From: a phage
Assembly: GCA_037431425.1 (NCBI GenBank)
Contig: GCA_037431425.1_4129.4
Reading direction: 5' to 3' (one strand)
DNA length: 34,554 nt
Shown one piece after another: positions 12,791 to 34,554 of the stretch (position 1 is the stretch's first letter; every line of letters starts with the position of its first letter). Under the pieces are notes generated by a model that did not search any database, was not told the origin of the DNA, and saw nothing but the letters and a program-made list of their open reading frames with translations. The position numbers and the translations under genes are program-made.

Positions 12791-13033
12791 ATGAAAGTAC
12801 TATCTGAATTACAAATGGGACAGAGATTTAATAAGTACTATCATTTACTGAAACCTATACAGAGGATTAAATGTTCTTATGATGAGAAACAGGTTTTAAT
12901 TTATGAGCACAAGTTCTTTGTATCATTAGGTACGAATCATCAAGAGTACTATTTGAAGTTGTACTTGATTACATTAATAGATTTAATTCACTATAAAACC
13001 AAACAAGCTAATAAAGAGAAATATGAAAACTAA
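12791..13033 (+). CDS. family A small protein
   Basis: Motif SLGTNHQEYYL; ATG 12791 directly after upstream TAA (track start 12782 is TTG). Confidence 0.65.
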   Translation: MKVLSELQMGQRFNKYYHLLKPIQRIKCSYDEKQVLIYEHKFFVSLGTNHQEYYLKLYLITLIDLIHYKTKQANKEKYEN

Positions 13034-13367
13034 TATACAACTCAAGGTGTATAAATCCTATGAACATATATATATCAAAAGTAGTCTATGTAGAGATGTA
13101 ATGGACTACAAGGGTAAGCCATTCACAATTACGTATGATTCTTATATTAATGATTTATATATATCATTTGTTAATTACGAAAATAAAATATACAAGCACG
13201 TTGATATTAAAGATTTAAGTACTTTATCACCAGAGGAATACTTTCAAGAATCATTAGTATGGGATTTAGAATTTCCTATGCCATTAGTACATAAAATGAT
13301 AGTACTAATGAAAGAAGCTAAACAGAAGCCTAATGGTGATTATGAAGAACACATTATTGAGTACTAA
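13023..13367 (+). CDS. family B protein
   Basis: Motif LSPEEYFQESLVWD; first family B member, embedded in the family A array. Confidence 0.65.
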   Translation: MKTNIQLKVYKSYEHIYIKSSLCRDVMDYKGKPFTITYDSYINDLYISFVNYENKIYKHVDIKDLSTLSPEEYFQESLVWDLEFPMPLVHKMIVLMKEAKQKPNGDYEEHIIEY

Positions 13368-13370
13368 ACA

Positions 13371-13595
13371 ATGAAAATATTATCATACGAAGATTACCGC
13401 AAGCTTCGCGGTATTTTGCGACCAGAAATTCAAAGAATTAATTCTCTTCCTATATCTAATGCAGAATGTTCAGTACTGAAAGATGAGTTAATATTAAAAC
13501 ACACAGTAGGAACTAACTATCAAGCTGATAGTGTTCGATATCTAATTTGGGGATTAATATGCATAGTAAAGGAAAAACAAGCTCAAGTACTGTGA
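13371..13595 (+). CDS. family A small protein
   Basis: Motif TVGTNYQADSV. Confidence 0.65.
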   Translation: MKILSYEDYRKLRGILRPEIQRINSLPISNAECSVLKDELILKHTVGTNYQADSVRYLIWGLICIVKEKQAQVL

Positions 13596-13921
13596 CAATC
13601 GAAGTGAATTCTATTAATGCTGGTAATGCAGTAGATAAGTTCTTTATTGCTCAAGGATACAGGAAAGATATTCATCAATATTGTTCAGTATATGGGGAGT
13701 ACAATAGTACTGAAGATATAATTTATTGGTCAACACATCAAGATTATCTAACTAAAATTGGTATTCCAGATGTTAGTACTTTATCTGAAGAAGAATACTT
13801 TCAGTACAGCTTAGTACATGATTTACCTATACCTTTAGGGTTAATTAAGGGTATGCAGGAAGAGGTTCATAAGCTTAAATCCATGAGTAAAGGTACTTTC
13901 ATTAGAACAGTGCAATACTAG
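13547..13921 (+). CDS. family B protein
   Basis: Motif LSEEEYFQYSLVHD; start uncertain (13547 or 13559). Confidence 0.6.
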   Translation: MGINMHSKGKTSSSTVTIEVNSINAGNAVDKFFIAQGYRKDIHQYCSVYGEYNSTEDIIYWSTHQDYLTKIGIPDVSTLSEEEYFQYSLVHDLPIPLGLIKGMQEEVHKLKSMSKGTFIRTVQY

Positions 13922-13922
13922 C

Positions 13923-13951
13923 TTGACAGTACTTTTCATTACTGATATAGT
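13923..13951 (+). promoter_or_regulatory. sigma70-like promoter
   Basis: -35 TTGACA 13923-13928, 17-nt spacer, -10 TATAGT 13946-13951. Confidence 0.55.
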
Positions 13952-13980
13952 ACACTAACGTTAATCATAGGGTAAAAATT

Positions 13981-14226
13981 ATGTTAAAATTTTTAAATTT
14001 CCTTATCGTCTTGTGTATTATTTTTGGGATTGCACCATTTGTATTGTATTTCATGGATTCAGATGAGATGCAGAAGATGAATTGCACAAAGACTGGACAG
14101 AGTAGAGAAGAGACGATTCTTATGCCTGTTACGGTTATTGTTAACAACATGCCCATTACAAACATGGTCCCTACCCTAACGACAAGGTGGCAGTACTCTT
14201 GTACAGACGGGGAGAGGTGGAGATGA
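13981..14226 (+). CDS. small putative membrane protein (81 aa)
   Basis: Hydrophobic N-terminal stretch LNFLIVLCIIFGIAPFVLYF consistent with one transmembrane helix; has its own promoter. Confidence 0.55.
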   Translation: MLKFLNFLIVLCIIFGIAPFVLYFMDSDEMQKMNCTKTGQSREETILMPVTVIVNNMPITNMVPTLTTRWQYSCTDGERWR

Positions 14227-32307: not shown

Positions 32308-32818
32308 AGATGGTATTCTAATTAGACTAATTAAGAGTTTGATAAAGTTCACAAATAATGATGTCGATACATACAAAGTTGGGGATATTGAATTCAAATC
32401 ATTTGGTATGTACGGTGAAGCCAAAACATATTATGCATCAATAAAATTACAAGAATCACACGAAATGTTAATATCGTTATCATACGAAGATGTTGACCCA
32501 AGATGGAGTTCCAGTATCTCGTTATCGAGAATGGTAATTCGTAATAATCACCGATACATTTCGTCAAGGAATACTCCTAACTTGTTTGATATTGTTTTGA
32601 ATGAAAATACCAACCCTATATCTAAACATGATATCGTACCTTTAACTGATGAAGTTCGTTTTCAGTTGAGCACCATTTGTGACGAAGATGTAATATCATG
32701 TATGAAAATTTACGAGAAGGTTGGGAGTGATATTCCCATGAACTATTACCTAACCATCGATGGAACGTACATCCGAGATGATGTTCTTGTGTACATTGAC
32801 AGTGTTTTTCCAAAATAA
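32300..32818 (+). CDS. family B protein
   Basis: Motif LTDEVRFQLSTICDE. Confidence 0.65.
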   Translation: MDKDGILIRLIKSLIKFTNNDVDTYKVGDIEFKSFGMYGEAKTYYASIKLQESHEMLISLSYEDVDPRWSSSISLSRMVIRNNHRYISSRNTPNLFDIVLNENTNPISKHDIVPLTDEVRFQLSTICDEDVISCMKIYEKVGSDIPMNYYLTIDGTYIRDDVLVYIDSVFPK

Positions 32819-32845
32819 AGACCCGTATGGGTCTTTTTGTGTTTT
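32819..32845 (+). terminator. intrinsic terminator
   Basis: AGACCC-gtat-GGGTCT followed by TTTTTGTGTTTT. Confidence 0.65.
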
Positions 32846-32849
32846 AGGC

Positions 32850-32878
32850 TTTACATAAGCATTCAGGTGTGTTATACT
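32850..32878 (+). promoter_or_regulatory. candidate sigma70-like promoter
   Basis: -35 TTTACA 32850-32855, 17-nt spacer, -10 TATACT 32873-32878. Confidence 0.4.
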
Positions 32879-32905
32879 TGATTTTAAATAAAATTGGAGG
32901 AATAT

Positions 32906-33469
32906 ATGAGTACTGAATTAATTAAAGAAGTCACATTACTTCTGAAACATTGTTTTAAGTACATTCCTGATACTGGTTCACGCCAGTACATTAAAGTTAA
33001 TGAGAAATATAACATTAATGTCTTAAAGAATGAAACCGTTAACAGTTATGCAAACATTGAGTTAGATGTTGAGGACAAATACACAGCATTACACATCATT
33101 TCGTCAGGCGATAGAAAACAAGATTATCGTTCTACATTTTATGATGAGAGTGTTACTGTTGGTTATAACTTTCATAAAAATAAAATTGCGTACAAGAATA
33201 CATACACACATGAAGTAATTGAAGAGTACAATTATAAAATTAAAAAAGACGAGTACGATGTACTTTTATTCAATGCGAACCTCATACATAATGCTTGCAC
33301 AGTTCGCAATCTTATGTTAGCATATGAAATTCCAAAGGTGATAGAAAGAAATGAATTGATAATCTTCAAAACTATTTTAAAATTCAGTACAGAAGAATTA
33401 GAAGAACTAGTACTGGCTCTTAAGATGTTCATCAATGAATATGTGCCTGTTAAATTAGAGGACTTATAA
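32906..33469 (+). CDS. family B-like protein (degenerate motif)
   Basis: ATG 32906 after RBS GGAGG (track start 32894 is TTG); DEYDVLLFNANLIHN at the motif position. Confidence 0.6.
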   Translation: MSTELIKEVTLLLKHCFKYIPDTGSRQYIKVNEKYNINVLKNETVNSYANIELDVEDKYTALHIISSGDRKQDYRSTFYDESVTVGYNFHKNKIAYKNTYTHEVIEEYNYKIKKDEYDVLLFNANLIHNACTVRNLMLAYEIPKVIERNELIIFKTILKFSTEELEELVLALKMFINEYVPVKLEDL

Positions 33470-34053
33470 TGCAAGCTGAACACATTCAAATTATGAATTT
33501 GATGCATGACATTGCGGAACTATCTGATAAGTACGATATTACTGTTCATGAGTCTATTGGAAATTATCGACTTAAAGTTGAAAACAAATCACCACATCGT
33601 TTTGGTTCTGTGACACTGGAGTCTTATAAAGATTACGGTTATGGAACGGCAAAAAAGGGTTTCTGGGATACTATGGCAATGTATATACGTACATCAAGAC
33701 GTAGAGAACAAATCGGTTCAATTACGCCAAATATGATATTTGTCAATGCTGTACACAGTGATATTAATCGAATTGTTGAATCTAATTTTGGTGACGTTGA
33801 GAACGATACATATTTGGAAATTCCACCAGAACTAGACCAATGTGAAGACATTCGTGAAGCATACATTTTCCAGAGATCATTACTTAACAACTTCAATGAG
33901 TTTCAGTACTTGATGCTTTGTTATGAAGCTGCAAAAGCTATTAAGACTGGTGAATTGGTAATGTATAATAATTTCATTAACTGCAAATCCGATACACTTA
34001 AAGAGTTACACACTGCCATCAAAAACATCAAGGATACATATGAACGCTTATAG
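33469..34053 (+). CDS. family B-like protein
   Basis: Motif REAYIFQRSLLNN; RBS GAGGA; shares a C-terminal LMLxYE...EL segment with 32906..33469. Confidence 0.6.
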   Translation: MQAEHIQIMNLMHDIAELSDKYDITVHESIGNYRLKVENKSPHRFGSVTLESYKDYGYGTAKKGFWDTMAMYIRTSRRREQIGSITPNMIFVNAVHSDINRIVESNFGDVENDTYLEIPPELDQCEDIREAYIFQRSLLNNFNEFQYLMLCYEAAKAIKTGELVMYNNFINCKSDTLKELHTAIKNIKDTYERL

Positions 34054-34057
34054 TTAT

Positions 34058-34554
34058 ATGACAGAACGTCATCAGATATTATATGATATCAGTACTAAAA
34101 TGTTATCAATCGTTAATAGTGGAAAAGAAATTGAAAAACAATACCTCATCCGTGATGTAGCAATTTCATCTAAATGTTGGTCCAATGAATATTACAACCA
34201 CGGTATTCTTACGATTTCTGGTGCTAGAAATATTTGTATTGTAAAAAATAAAAACAAAAGTAATGAAGAGTGTGAGATTAGAACCGATATACAAATTAAG
34301 GATGATGGAAGTTTTTCACACTACCCATTTCATATTAGTACTATTGGTGTTTTATATAATATTAAAGTACTATTCGGTGATGAAGAGTATAAGTTAAAAT
34401 ATATCGACCCAGAATCGAGTACAGTCCAAGAAGACCTGTTTCAGATGAGCACAATTATGCCCGAAGAAGTTCTTAGTACTGTTGTTTTTTGTAGTTTAAT
34501 TTATCACGAATACAAAAAGAACCAATTCGATTTCCACATGATAGGAACGTACAT
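34058..34554 (+). CDS. family B protein (3' partial, runs off window)
   Basis: ATG 34058, open to the window end with no stop; motif VQEDLFQMSTIMPEE; absent from ORF track because no stop lies inside the window. Confidence 0.55.
   Translation, partial: MTERHQILYDISTKMLSIVNSGKEIEKQYLIRDVAISSKCWSNEYYNHGILTISGARNICIVKNKNKSNEECEIRTDIQIKDDGSFSHYPFHISTIGVLYNIKVLFGDEEYKLKYIDPESSTVQEDLFQMSTIMPEEVLSTVVFCSLIYHEYKKNQFDFHMIGTY

What the first reader, a model, noticed from the sequence alone, without database searches (positions are those of the whole stretch)
13023..34554. Second, larger tandem array: about 38 or more paralogs with a central E-E-x-x-F-Q-x-S-L-V-x-D motif (family B)
From 13023 to the window end (and continuing beyond it) most ORFs of 100-200 aa carry the motif [ST]-x-[LM]-[SDT]-E-E-x-x-[FY]-F-Q-x-[SQN]-[LT]-[VI]-x-[DN], usually followed 10-15 residues later by a hydrophobic segment (for example LCTLEEVIEIQ or LVIMWYFK). 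N- and C-terminal regions are highly divergent, so the proteins look like a conserved core carrying variable modules. About 21 kb of one strand is devoted to this family with only a few candidate internal promoters (13923, 17540, 28978, 32850) and one clear terminator (32819). The last member runs off the window, so the array is longer than what is seen here. I do not recognise the motif.
Basis: partly seen in the sequence, partly recalled or inferred. Interest (0 to 1): 0.85.

Follow-up and report, generated by a model that had tools for sequence, protein, structure and literature searches.

The report
Jumbo-phage "FQ-core" gene family array
About 21 kb of this window, which comes from a giant E. 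coli phage of the PBECO4/121Q group, is a real tandem array of about 35 very divergent copies of one uncharacterised small-protein family with an always-conserved Phe-Gln pair; the genes are probably switched on early to manipulate the host, but their function is unknown.

Summary
The window is an Asteriusvirus (Rak2-like) jumbo coliphage, 98.9% identical to phage ph0011.

- **Membership:** 33 + strand ORFs between 13023 and 32818 pass a leave-one-out HMM test. Two more (33469, 34040) join after iteration. No shuffled or minus-strand ORF scores.
- **Motif:** F and Q are invariant in all members, and in a 150-sequence alignment with 8% mean column identity. Synonymous codons vary, so the constraint is on the protein.
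- **Selection:** orthologues versus PBECO4 give dN/dS of about 0.26.
- **Extent:** in ph0011 the array runs about 6.4 kb past the window end (39 HMM members in all). An equivalent array of 21-24 genes occupies the same slot, next to the direct terminal repeat, in the distant Salmonella phage Munch.
- **No known relative:** Pfam, NCBIfam, PADLOC and PDB sequence searches find nothing, and PHROGs lists only unknown-function groups.
- **Not virion proteins:** none was detected in the phAPEC6 virion proteome.
- **Promoters:** conserved near-consensus σ70 promoters subdivide the array.

Best reading: early, non-structural, host-directed proteins on a common scaffold. That function is inferred, not shown. 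The array was mentioned once in the literature (121Q, 2017) but never characterised.

The parts
13023..13367 (+). family B member 1 (short class, 114 aa)
   Evidence: HMM and leave-one-out E=2.8e-10. Motif SPEEYFQESLVWD.
13547..13921 (+). member 2 (short, 124 aa)
   Evidence: Leave-one-out E=1.6e-12. This gene is absent from ph0011.
14223..14549 (+). member 3 (short)
   Evidence: Leave-one-out E=3.4e-7. Absent from PBECO4.
14559..14870 (+). member 4 (short, 103 aa)
   Evidence: Leave-one-out E=2.2e-8.
15836..16396 (+). member 5 (long, 186 aa)
   Evidence: Leave-one-out E=5.4e-13.
16386..16700 (+). member 6 (short, 104 aa)
   Evidence: Leave-one-out E=1.6e-5. Matches phrog_33987.
17004..17522 (+). 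member 7 (long, 172 aa)
   Evidence: Leave-one-out E=1.7e-5.
17594..18142 (+). member 8 (long, 182 aa)
   Evidence: Leave-one-out E=1.4e-8. Only 43% identical to its PBECO4 orthologue.
18139..18747 (+). member 9 (long, 202 aa)
   Evidence: Leave-one-out E=6.3e-4, the weakest of the 33.
18921..19472 (+). member 10 (long, 183 aa)
   Evidence: Leave-one-out E=4.7e-6.
19823..20365 (+). member 11 (long, 180 aa)
   Evidence: Leave-one-out E=3e-5.
21074..21451 (+). member 12 (short; first of a local cluster of four)
   Evidence: Leave-one-out E=9.2e-13. Best paralogue is the adjacent gene.
21451..21807 (+). member 13 (short, 118 aa)
   Evidence: Leave-one-out E=9.5e-17. Matches phrog_15629.
21804..22169 (+). 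member 14 (short, 121 aa)
   Evidence: Leave-one-out E=6.7e-14.
22171..22512 (+). member 15 (short)
   Evidence: Leave-one-out E=2.2e-19.
22696..23166 (+). member 16 (long; first of a local cluster of four)
   Evidence: Leave-one-out E=1.1e-15.
23163..23603 (+). member 17 (long, 146 aa)
   Evidence: Leave-one-out E=1.4e-17.
23606..24073 (+). member 18 (long, 155 aa), the modelled representative
   Evidence: Leave-one-out E=2.1e-21. AF2 model pLDDT 80.3, pTM 0.76, FQ at 113-114 in helix 109-115. Orthologue of phAPEC6 gp442c.
24073..24516 (+). member 19 (long, 147 aa)
   Evidence: Leave-one-out E=4.2e-19.
24513..24827 (+). member 20 (short, 104 aa)
   Evidence: Leave-one-out E=1.4e-6.
24827..25270 (+). 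member 21 (long, 147 aa)
   Evidence: Leave-one-out E=1.2e-13. No reciprocal-best orthologue in PBECO4.
25267..25722 (+). member 22 (long, 151 aa)
   Evidence: Leave-one-out E=2.5e-12.
26600..27154 (+). member 23 (long)
   Evidence: Leave-one-out E=4e-8.
27753..28112 (+). member 24 (short, 119 aa), the modelled representative
   Evidence: Leave-one-out E=2.5e-10. AF2 model pLDDT 82.3, pTM 0.76, five β-strands, then FQ helix 63-72, helix 81-97 and strand 110-117.
28102..28437 (+). member 25 (short, 111 aa)
   Evidence: Leave-one-out E=1.3e-8.
28445..28981 (+). member 26 (long, 178 aa)
   Evidence: Leave-one-out E=1.6e-8. tblastn finds it only in 36 Asteriusvirus records.
29041..29514 (+). member 27 (long, 157 aa)
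   Evidence: Leave-one-out E=1.2e-10.
29511..29981 (+). member 28 (long, 156 aa)
   Evidence: Leave-one-out E=2.5e-17.
29971..30333 (+). member 29 (short, 120 aa)
   Evidence: Leave-one-out E=1.1e-11.
30317..30730 (+). member 30 (short, 137 aa)
   Evidence: Leave-one-out E=3.9e-7.
30730..31212 (+). member 31 (long)
   Evidence: Leave-one-out E=9.1e-14.
31735..32307 (+). member 32 (long, 190 aa)
   Evidence: Leave-one-out E=3.2e-6.
32300..32818 (+). member 33 (long, 172 aa)
   Evidence: Leave-one-out E=6.2e-8.
33469..34053 (+). member 34 (divergent, 194 aa)
   Evidence: Joins only after ph0011 downstream members are added. Motif EAYIFQRSLLNN.
34040..34554 (+). member 35, cut by the window end (192 aa in ph0011)
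   Evidence: Joins at iteration. Full ORF is at L001 34861-35439.
19469..19813 (+). possible degenerate member (114 aa)
   Evidence: HMM E=0.008, comparable to the best shuffled control at 0.016. hhalign aligns the correct motif region but at probability 3%.
25709..26245 (+). possible degenerate member (178 aa; DEQCFQLSCTD)
   Evidence: Regex match. HMM E=0.49. hhalign probability 2% at the motif columns.
13923..13951 (+). σ70-type promoter in an intergenic gap (TTGACA-17-TATAGT, TG-extended)
   Evidence: 11 of 12 consensus positions. Conserved in ph0011, PBECO4 and fEgEco12.
17508..17533 (+). intrinsic terminator after member 7
   Evidence: 11-bp stem followed by a T-run. Hairpin conserved in four phages.
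17540..17568 (+). σ70-type promoter (TTGACT-17-TACAAT)
18885..18913 (+). σ70-type promoter (TTAACA-17-TATAAT, TG-extended)
   Evidence: 11 of 12. Conserved in 3 of 4 phages.
28978..29007 (+). σ70-type promoter (TTGACC-18-TATAAT, TG-extended)
   Evidence: 11 of 12. The -10 element and its flanks are identical in four phages.
32817..32836 (+). intrinsic terminator after member 33 (AAAGACCC-GTAT-GGGTCTTT plus T-run)
   Evidence: Read from the alignment; conserved in four phages.
32850..32878 (+). σ70-type promoter (TTTACA-17-TATACT, TG-extended)
   Evidence: Read from the alignment; conserved in four phages.

Best explanation
**What it is (shown).** This is an old, tandemly duplicated, protein-coding multigene family specific to Rak2-like jumbo phages.
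- It has about 35 genes in the window and about 39-45 in the full array of roughly 27 kb, about 8% of the genome.
- The array lies in the first unique DNA inside the left direct terminal repeat, and every gene reads inward on one strand.

**Protein architecture (predicted).**
- Each protein has a divergent antiparallel β-sheet backed by two helices.
- The first helix carries the invariant Phe-Gln ([ST]-x-x-E-E-x-x-F-Q-x-S-[LT]-[VI]-x-D).
- A C-terminal strand completes the domain.
- Long-class members add an N-terminal helix (…[DE]L-x-[YE]-A-K-x-I…) and a C-terminal helix.

**How it most likely works (inferred).**
- The genes are transcribed early by unmodified host RNA polymerase from near-consensus σ70 promoters.
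- They give mostly acidic cytoplasmic proteins that are not packaged into virions.
- The FQ helix-turn-helix is the common scaffold, or a common docking element.
- The rapidly diverging sheet and termini give each paralogue a different host target, such as defence or takeover targets. The array would then be a library of host-interaction modules.
For: **Family is real and coding**
- HMM and leave-one-out membership hold with clean negative controls.
- Invariant F and Q sit alongside synonymous codon variation.
- dN/dS has a median of 0.26 and a range of 0.08-0.58 over 31 orthologue pairs. It is 0.19 in the core and 0.31 in both flanks. A spurious overlapping ORF gives 2.0.
- Shine-Dalgarno cores precede 21 of 35 starts, against 10.6% of random positions.

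**Lineage specificity and age**
- The profile finds 157 clusters among 1.84 billion representatives. All are 55-215 aa except one artefact.
- Sampled representatives map to divergent Asteriusvirus phages (JNE01, Turkey5), Salmonella Munch/7t3, Klebsiella fENko-Kae01 and Erwinia Hallingskeid.
- Structural hits include RaK2 proteins.
- Munch has 21-24 members in the syntenic slot, starting at its terminal-repeat boundary. Its last member is an orthologue of the last ph0011 member, E=1e-21.
- The best paralogue lies within two array positions for 14 of 35 genes, against 4.0 expected at random.

**Early, non-virion**
- Near-consensus σ70 promoters with TG extension, plus two terminators, lie in the few intergenic gaps and are conserved in four phages.
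- Five perfect 12/12 σ70 promoters lie just upstream, in the terminal-repeat portion.
- The array begins about 6 kb inside the experimentally determined 20,993-bp terminal repeat of fEgEco12 (PMC13070987).
- No protein between gp347 and gp549 appears in the phAPEC6 virion proteome, and member 18 is the orthologue of gp442c (PMC7247149).
- Median pI is 4.9 and median net charge is -8.

**Turnover**
- Whole-gene gain and loss occurs between isolates that are 95-99% identical.
Against: - There is no direct evidence of function, timing or targets. No transcriptome, proteome or genetic data for these genes were found in the searched literature.
- Overall σ70-like site counts do not exceed shuffled expectation. 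Only the top-scoring, conserved intergenic sites carry weight.
- It is not known which genome end enters the cell first.
- All regions are under purifying selection. No arms-race signal (dN/dS > 1) was seen at the resolution used.
- The array is old and largely syntenic, which is less dynamic than typical anti-defence loci.
- An invariant Gln could equally mark a shared ligand or catalytic site, implying one common biochemical activity rather than many targets.
- PADLOC gives nothing, and no anti-defence library was available.
Confidence: 0.45

Rival explanations
1. The array is genome filler. Tandem duplication expanded the genome after the capsid enlarged, and the copies now drift with little or no function. 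This is the ratchet idea of Hua et al. 2017.
For: [quoted passage not shown]
- Neighbouring genes are each other's best paralogues more often than chance predicts.
- Whole-gene indels are tolerated.
Against: - Every orthologue pair is under purifying selection, with median dN/dS 0.26 and maximum 0.58.
- F and Q are invariant across 150 sequences with 8% mean column identity.
- The ORFs are intact, and the array is retained at the same locus in a different genus.
- Paralogues are far from 'very similar', at 15% mean column identity.
Confidence: 0.07
2. All paralogues share one biochemical activity or ligand. The invariant Gln and neighbouring residues would form a common binding or catalytic site, for example a sponge for small molecules or an enzyme acting on a common substrate. 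Divergence elsewhere would tune specificity or dosage.
For: - Strict invariance of a polar residue (Q) beside F in an otherwise hypervariable family.
- A well-conserved S/T-x-x-E-E and S-L-V-x-D environment.
- The core has the lowest dN/dS, 0.19.
Against: - The invariant pair is too small to define an active site, and no other polar position is invariant.
- No fold or sequence match to any enzyme or known sponge.
- In both models the motif is a short helix packed against the sheet, as expected for a fold core.
- About 40 copies of a single activity is hard to rationalise.
Confidence: 0.18
3. They are packaged virion proteins, either internal head or inner-body proteins or ejected proteins. This would resemble the paralogous inner-body families of phiKZ-like phages or the T4 internal proteins.
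For: - phAPEC6 heads show an inner body by cryo-EM (PMC7247149).
- The proteins are small, acidic and paralogous, as internal proteins often are.
Against: - None of the 62 virion proteins detected by mass spectrometry lies between gp347 and gp549, the range that contains the one mapped orthologue, gp442c.
- The genes sit in a σ70-promoter region next to the terminal repeat, not among the morphogenesis genes.
- No conserved N-terminal targeting or cleavage motif appears in the alignment.
Confidence: 0.04
4. They modulate host RNA polymerase or transcription using a fold that resembles the β-subunit lobe domain, by competing for or docking with lobe-binding partners.
For: - Host RNAP is likely used for the early genes, judging from the σ70 promoters.
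Against: - hhalign of the family profile against E. coli RpoB residues 1-500 gives probability 0.14%.
Confidence: 0.08

Closest known systems
PHROGs unknown-function families phrog_13866, 12674, 9317, 15629, 34017, 33987, 30978 and 36945
   Same: These are the same proteins. Window members hit them at E values between 1e-34 and 1e-89, with weaker cross-hits between the groups.
   Different: PHROGs splits the family into at least eight separate groups, none with a function. The unifying FQ core, the fold and the array structure are not recorded there.
[quoted passage not shown] 2017, mBio, PMC5646251)
   Same: Same phage genus and the same kind of feature. It is either this array or the adjacent family A array.
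   Different: It is a one-sentence mention with no coordinates, motif, family definition or function. The genes here are not 'very similar' (15% mean column identity). Family A has 29 members of about 70 aa in the window and fits that description about as well.
Early host-takeover gene blocks next to terminal repeats in large virulent phages: T5 pre-early region, SPO1 host-takeover module, Twort-like/phage K terminal-repeat genes (from my own knowledge)
   Same: All have small, mostly acidic, non-structural ORFs on one strand. All have strong host-type promoters and sit at or next to a long direct terminal repeat.
   Different: Those blocks are collections of unrelated ORFans, not roughly 40 paralogues of one fold. 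No sequence similarity to them was found.
Terminal multigene families of large eukaryotic DNA viruses: ASFV MGF360/505, poxvirus ankyrin/PRANC, MCMV m145 MHC-like platform family (from my own knowledge)
   Different: There is no homology, the host is bacterial, and the proteins are much smaller and cytoplasmic. The structural similarity is below the level that supports common ancestry.
RNA polymerase β/RPB2 lobe-type domain
   Different: There is no sequence signal: hhalign probability is 0.14%. The long-class model does not reproduce the hit.
Potyviral NIa (TEV) protease site E-x-x-Y-x-Q|(G/S) (from my own knowledge)
   Same: Some members read like it, for example EEGYFQGS at 25267 and EEYYFQQS at 23606.
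   Different: The position after Q is variable in the family. The Y is replaced by L, F, I or others in more than half the members. The motif is helical and packed in both models. No 3C-like protease is known in this system. I treat the resemblance as coincidental.

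Membership tests
Any curated protein family (Pfam-A, NCBIfam) | Score above the family's curated cut-off | tested here: not met
   All 33 members were scanned. There are only isolated sub-threshold hits, each to a single member.
Known anti-phage defence proteins (PADLOC-DB) | Significant match to a defence-system model | tested here: not met
   Two unrelated single-member hits at E of about 5e-4.
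Rak2-like jumbo-phage FQ-core family (defined here; spans at least eight PHROGs) | Profile match together with F-Q at the aligned position | tested here: met
   35 window ORFs qualify. F and Q are invariant in the 150-sequence alignment A4.
Rak2-like jumbo-phage FQ-core family (defined here) | Tandem, same-strand arrangement next to the left direct terminal repeat, conserved across genera | tested here: met
   Seen in ph0011, PBECO4, fEgEco12 and Munch.
Phage early / host-takeover genes | Transcription early in infection by host RNAP | not testable with these tools
   The only evidence is indirect: conserved near-consensus σ70 promoters. No expression data were found.
Phage early / host-takeover genes | Non-structural, i.e. 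absent from virions | tested here: met
   The published phAPEC6 virion proteome has no protein between gp347 and gp549, and member 18 is the orthologue of gp442c. This is a literature result for a related phage, not this isolate.
Anti-defence proteins | Demonstrated inhibition of a host immune system, or homology to a known inhibitor | not tested
   No anti-defence library was available and no homology to anything characterised was found. This part is purely inferential.
Virion internal / inner-body protein families | Detected in purified virions | tested here: not met
   phAPEC6 Table 1 lists none.
RNAP β lobe-like domain | Sequence-profile homology to RpoB | tested here: not met
   hhalign probability 0.14%.

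The most novel reading that the evidence does not exclude
The FQ-core proteins would be a phage counterpart of the terminal multigene families of large eukaryotic DNA viruses. In this reading they form a roughly 40-member library built on a previously undescribed α/β platform fold. The invariant FQ helix would be a common anchor, either structural or docking to a shared phage or host partner. The hypervariable β-sheet face of each paralogue would neutralise a different host defence or takeover target. This library would then largely set the host range of Rak2-like jumbo phages.
Probability: 0.3. Interest if true: 0.8.

Novelty: new member of a known kind. Interest (0 to 1): 0.55.

Why it matters
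**Scale.** Roughly 8% of a 350-kb phage genome is spent on one protein family, and about 10% if family A is included. That family has no annotation, no solved-structure relative and no known function. It is nevertheless retained under purifying selection across several genera of Enterobacteriaceae jumbo phages.

**If it is a host-interaction library.** It would be a rich, ready-made source of new inhibitors of bacterial functions or defences. It would also explain part of host-range variation in phages now being proposed for therapy, such as PBECO4-, phAPEC6- and fEgEco12-like isolates.

**If it is not.** An invariant Phe-Gln in a family with 8% mean column identity is still an unusually clean structure-function problem.

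**Practical handles.** The work here provides a family profile, two confident models, the array boundaries, transcription-unit boundaries and natural gene-presence variants. Together these make the question experimentally tractable.

Tried and rejected
- **Low-complexity or chance motif.** Rejected. Shuffled and minus-strand ORFs never score, and synonymous codons vary at the invariant residues.
- **DNA- or RNA-level conservation of the motif.** Rejected for the same codon-level reason.
- **Relationship to family A (LGTNxQ).** hhalign probability is 0.3%, so the two families are unrelated.
- **RNAP β lobe homology.** hhalign probability is 0.14%.
- **TEV-like protease site.** Judged coincidental.
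- **P0146, a 773-aa hit with six motif matches.** It is a translated tandem repeat and a false positive.
- **'Putative ADP-ribosyl transferase' inside the array in ph0011, and 'protein kinase' at window 2828-3412.** Pfam gives no hit for the first and only a sub-threshold Pkinase hit for the second (17.9 bits against a 31.7 cut-off). Neither is used as evidence.
- **The 'Phi92_gp213' note on the ph0011 orthologue of 28445.**
- **ORFs 27145, 31193 and 32894 as degenerate members.** Not supported by HMM or hhalign. hhalign without secondary structure was insensitive even for true members: 11% and 74% for 33469 and 18139.
- **A second database search with a 150-sequence alignment.** It found no additional annotated relatives.
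- **Literature.** No functional, transcriptomic or genetic study of these genes was found.

Full report
**1. Identity of the window**

Megablast of 13000-34554 matches 36 phage records, all Escherichia or Salmonella jumbo phages of the genus Asteriusvirus (PBECO4, 121Q, phAPEC6, SP27 and others). The best is Escherichia phage ph0011, at 98.9% identity over 98% of the query. Every feature under the matches is annotated 'hypothetical protein'. G+C is 30-33% across the array. The window is itself a 34,554-bp contig from an 'E. coli' assembly, with locus tags WJW27_0048xx. It is therefore a lytic phage sequence sitting in a bacterial assembly.

Yes.
- A regex for the FQ core hits about 34 + strand ORFs from 13023 onward. 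Upstream there are only two chance-like matches.
- An HMM seeded with six members converges on 33 ORFs at E < 1e-3. None of 102 shuffled ORFs and none of 25 minus-strand ORFs is hit.
- Each of the 33 is recovered by a profile built without it, with E from 2e-21 to 6e-4.
- Adding the downstream members of ph0011 recruits 33469 and the truncated 34040, giving 35.
- 19469 and 25709 remain possible degenerate members. 27145, 31193 and 32894 are not supported.

In the 33-sequence alignment the only invariant columns besides the start Met are F and Q, and mean column identity is 15%. Codon usage at those residues is mixed: TTT 23 / TTC 12 and CAG 21 / CAA 14. The conserved Ser uses both TCN and AGY codons. 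The constraint therefore acts on the protein, not on the DNA. The consensus is [ST]-x-[LM]-[ST]-E-[EAD]-x-[YLF]-F-Q-x-S-[LT]-[VI]-[YHFW]-D.

**3. Are the genes real?**

Against PBECO4, which is about 84% identical in DNA, 31 orthologue pairs were compared.
- dN/dS has a median of 0.26 and a range of 0.08-0.58.
- Amino-acid identity ranges from 43% to 96%.
- The spurious ORF 23251-23544, which overlaps a real gene, gives 2.0.
- Pooled by region, dN/dS is 0.19 for the motif plus the following helix, and 0.31 for both the N-terminal and C-terminal parts.
- Shine-Dalgarno cores of at least 4 nt precede 21 of 35 starts, against 10.6% of random positions.

**4. Extent, position and evolution of the array**
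- **Extent.** In ph0011 the array continues about 6.4 kb beyond the window end, and 39 ORFs there match the broad profile. PBECO4 has 38.
- **Position.** fEgEco12 has experimentally confirmed termini and a 20,993-bp direct terminal repeat (DTR) (PMC13070987). There the layout is DTR, then family A from 21,091, then family B from 27,270 to about 56,260, all on one strand. The DTR boundary maps to about window 7165-7195.
- **Other genera.** Salmonella phage Munch belongs to a different genus-level cluster, with about 29% ANI to fEgEco12 by that paper's Table 2. Its syntenic slot lies between a kinase-like gene and a Dam methylase/nucleotidyltransferase pair. It holds 21 HMM-positive ORFs, 24 of which carry the FQ motif. 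The series starts at 21,318, right at the 21,296-bp DTR boundary reported for Munch (PMC8273493). The last Munch member is a clear orthologue of the last ph0011 member, 31% identity over 153 aa with E=1e-21. All other pairs have diverged beyond pairwise recognition.
- **Local duplication.** Within the window, the best paralogue lies within two array positions for 14 of 35 genes. The random expectation is 4.0, with a maximum of 12 in 2000 trials. The best paralogue identities are only about 25-58%, and the higher values cover only partial lengths.
- **Recent turnover.** ph0011 lacks the gene at 13547. PBECO4 lacks 14187 and the family A gene at 13371. fEgEco12 has an extra copy of 13023 at 83% identity.

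The picture is an ancient array formed by local duplication. It has been kept for a long time and is still subject to occasional whole-gene turnover.

**5. Distribution**

The family profile was searched against 1.84 billion cluster representatives.
- It finds 157 clusters at E ≤ 1e-3, of which 23 are at E ≤ 1e-10. Lengths are 55-215 aa. The single outlier, P0146, is a translated tandem repeat.
- About 100 clusters are less than 50% identical to anything in ph0011, PBECO4 or the window.
- Sampled clusters map to the divergent Asteriusvirus phages JNE01 and Turkey5. Their copies are only 31-45% identical to those of the PBECO4 group.
- Others map to Munch, 7t3, SE_PL, PHA46 and Klebsiella fENko-Kae01, and to Erwinia phage Hallingskeid.
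- Foldseek against BFVD adds uncharacterised Klebsiella RaK2 proteins with adjacent accession numbers, and weakly Serratia phage BF.
- A 150-sequence alignment of these representatives has 8% mean column identity, and F and Q are still invariant.
- Two searches of the 5.8-billion-protein collection returned only 'hypothetical protein' entries with no Pfam domain.

**6. What the protein looks like**

AlphaFold2 was run with the paralogue alignments.
- **Long class (23606):** pLDDT 80.3, pTM 0.76. The order is an N-terminal helix, six strands, a short helix, the FQ helix (109-115), a long helix (121-135), a strand and a C-terminal helix. One insert is disordered.
- **Short class (27753):** pLDDT 82.3, pTM 0.76. 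The order is five strands, the FQ helix (63-72), helix 81-97 and strand 110-117.

The shared core is thus a β-sheet backed by the FQ helix-turn-helix and closed by a C-terminal strand.

hhalign of the family against E. coli RpoB residues 1-500 is negative, at probability 0.14%. Pfam, NCBIfam, PADLOC and PDB sequence profiles are negative. PHROGs places members in at least eight unknown-function groups that cross-hit one another. I could not compute burial of F and Q because model coordinates are not exposed. Whether they are core or surface residues remains open.

**7. Expression context**

The array has very few intergenic gaps, and most genes abut or overlap. The gaps that exist carry near-consensus σ70 promoters with a TG extension, at 13923, 17540, 18885, 28978 and 32850. 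Two are preceded by intrinsic terminators, at 17508-17533 and about 32817-32836. The -35 and -10 elements and the hairpins are conserved in ph0011, PBECO4 and fEgEco12 while the flanks vary.

Total promoter-like counts do not exceed shuffles, so only these top-scoring, conserved intergenic sites are used as evidence. Immediately upstream, in the DTR portion, there are five perfect 12/12 consensus promoters on the same strand. The CBB paper likewise equates RpoD-like promoters with the early region of a Rak2-like phage, including its terminal repeat (PMC5259590).

The phAPEC6 virion proteome of 62 proteins contains nothing between gp347 and gp549, and member 18 corresponds to gp442c (PMC7247149). 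The proteins are mostly acidic, with median pI 4.9 and net charge -8, and are rich in aromatic residues.

**8. Interpretation**

Shown:
- A real, translated, selectively maintained, lineage-specific multigene family.
- An invariant FQ core, and no characterised relative by sequence or fold.
- A tandem arrangement next to the left DTR.
- Absence from the virion proteome of a close relative.

Inferred:
- Early transcription by host RNAP.
- A role in host takeover or counter-defence, with the FQ helix-turn-helix as common scaffold and the divergent sheet and termini giving target specificity.

I put about 0.45 on this mechanism. The rivals, with my confidence in each, are:
- A shared ligand or catalytic site (0.18).
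- RNAP-directed lobe mimicry (0.08).
- Neutral filler (0.07).
- Virion internal proteins (0.04).

The evidence for and against each is listed in the Rival explanations section.

**9. Novelty**

The existence of a large tandem array in 121Q was noted in one sentence by Hua et al. 2017. That paper gave no coordinates and may have meant family A. The RaK2 and CBB papers note many paralogues in general terms. No paper found defines this family, its motif, its fold or its conserved position, and none reports a function.

As a kind of feature it belongs with the known early or accessory paralogue arrays of large viruses. As a protein family it is uncharacterised. I therefore file it as a new member of a known kind, of moderate interest.

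Noticed in passing
window 7258-13033, plus 13371-13595, 14899-15150, 26223-26441 and 26419-26610: Family A (LGTNxQ motif, about 65-95 aa) has 29 HMM-defined members. Four are interspersed inside the family B array. hhalign of A against B gives probability 0.3%, so the two families are unrelated. Family A is absent from the syntenic region of phage Munch.
   Followed up: partly
window ~7040-7258 (core ~7165-7195): The boundary of the long direct terminal repeat (20,993 bp in fEgEco12) maps here. It falls inside a conserved, unusually GC-rich intergenic element (…GGCAAAATGCGTAGGGGGGCTAAAGTGCGGGTAAC…). This is a candidate terminase recognition or cleavage region. Window 1 to about 7190 is therefore terminal-repeat DNA.
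   Followed up: partly
window 484-521, 3424-3459, 5707-5742; also 1085, 1281, 1710, 3857, 5412: A hairpin-plus-promoter element (AAAGGGATTGACTCCGGTCAGTCCCTTT-GCTATTATAT) occurs twice identically (3424, 5707) and once as a variant (484), with the -35 hexamer inside the stem. Five perfect 12/12 σ70 consensus promoters lie on the + strand in intergenic gaps of the terminal-repeat portion.
   Followed up: no
window 13562-13921, 13366-13576, 14227-14558; L004 15249-15609: Whole-gene presence/absence differences occur between isolates that are 95-99% identical in this region. ph0011 lacks the family B gene at 13547. PBECO4 lacks the family A gene at 13371 and the family B gene at 14187. fEgEco12 carries an extra tandem copy of 13023-13367 at 83% identity.
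   Followed up: yes
whole window: The window is a complete 34,554-bp contig of an 'Escherichia coli' genome assembly (locus tags WJW27_0048xx), but it is DNA of a virulent jumbo phage. Recent papers describe such lytic phage sequences in bacterial assemblies and mention Asteriusvirus (PMC12768965; bioRxiv 10.1101/2024.12.31.630880).
   Followed up: no
window 2828-3412: This 194-aa ORF is annotated in relatives as a protein kinase. It gives only a sub-threshold Pkinase hit here (E=0.002, 17.9 bits against a 31.7 cut-off). It is syntenic with 'putative protein kinase' CPT_Munch_046.
   Followed up: partly
L001 38685-39098 (ph0011, about 4 kb beyond the window end): A 137-aa ORF embedded in the family B array is annotated 'putative ADP-ribosyl transferase'. 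Pfam gives no hit, and PHROGs places it in unknown-function phrog_11632.
   Followed up: partly
window 13981-14226: An 81-aa ORF with a strongly hydrophobic N-terminus (MLKFLNFLIVLCIIFGIAPFVLYF…), probably a small membrane protein. It sits directly behind the conserved promoter at 13923, inside the array, and is unrelated to families A and B.
   Followed up: no
window 23251-23544: This 97-aa ORF overlaps member 17 in another frame. Its dN/dS against PBECO4 is 2.0, so it is a spurious ORF. It served as an internal negative control.
   Followed up: yes
long-class members, N-terminus (e.g. window 23606, 22696, 25267, 29041): There is a second, weaker conserved element: an N-terminal helix of the form …[SD]-[LFY]-[ED]-x-A-L/x-x-x-A-[KQ]-x-I…. 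It is also present in distant representatives from other genera (for example P0083, P0167, P0168) and is missing from the short class.
   Followed up: partly
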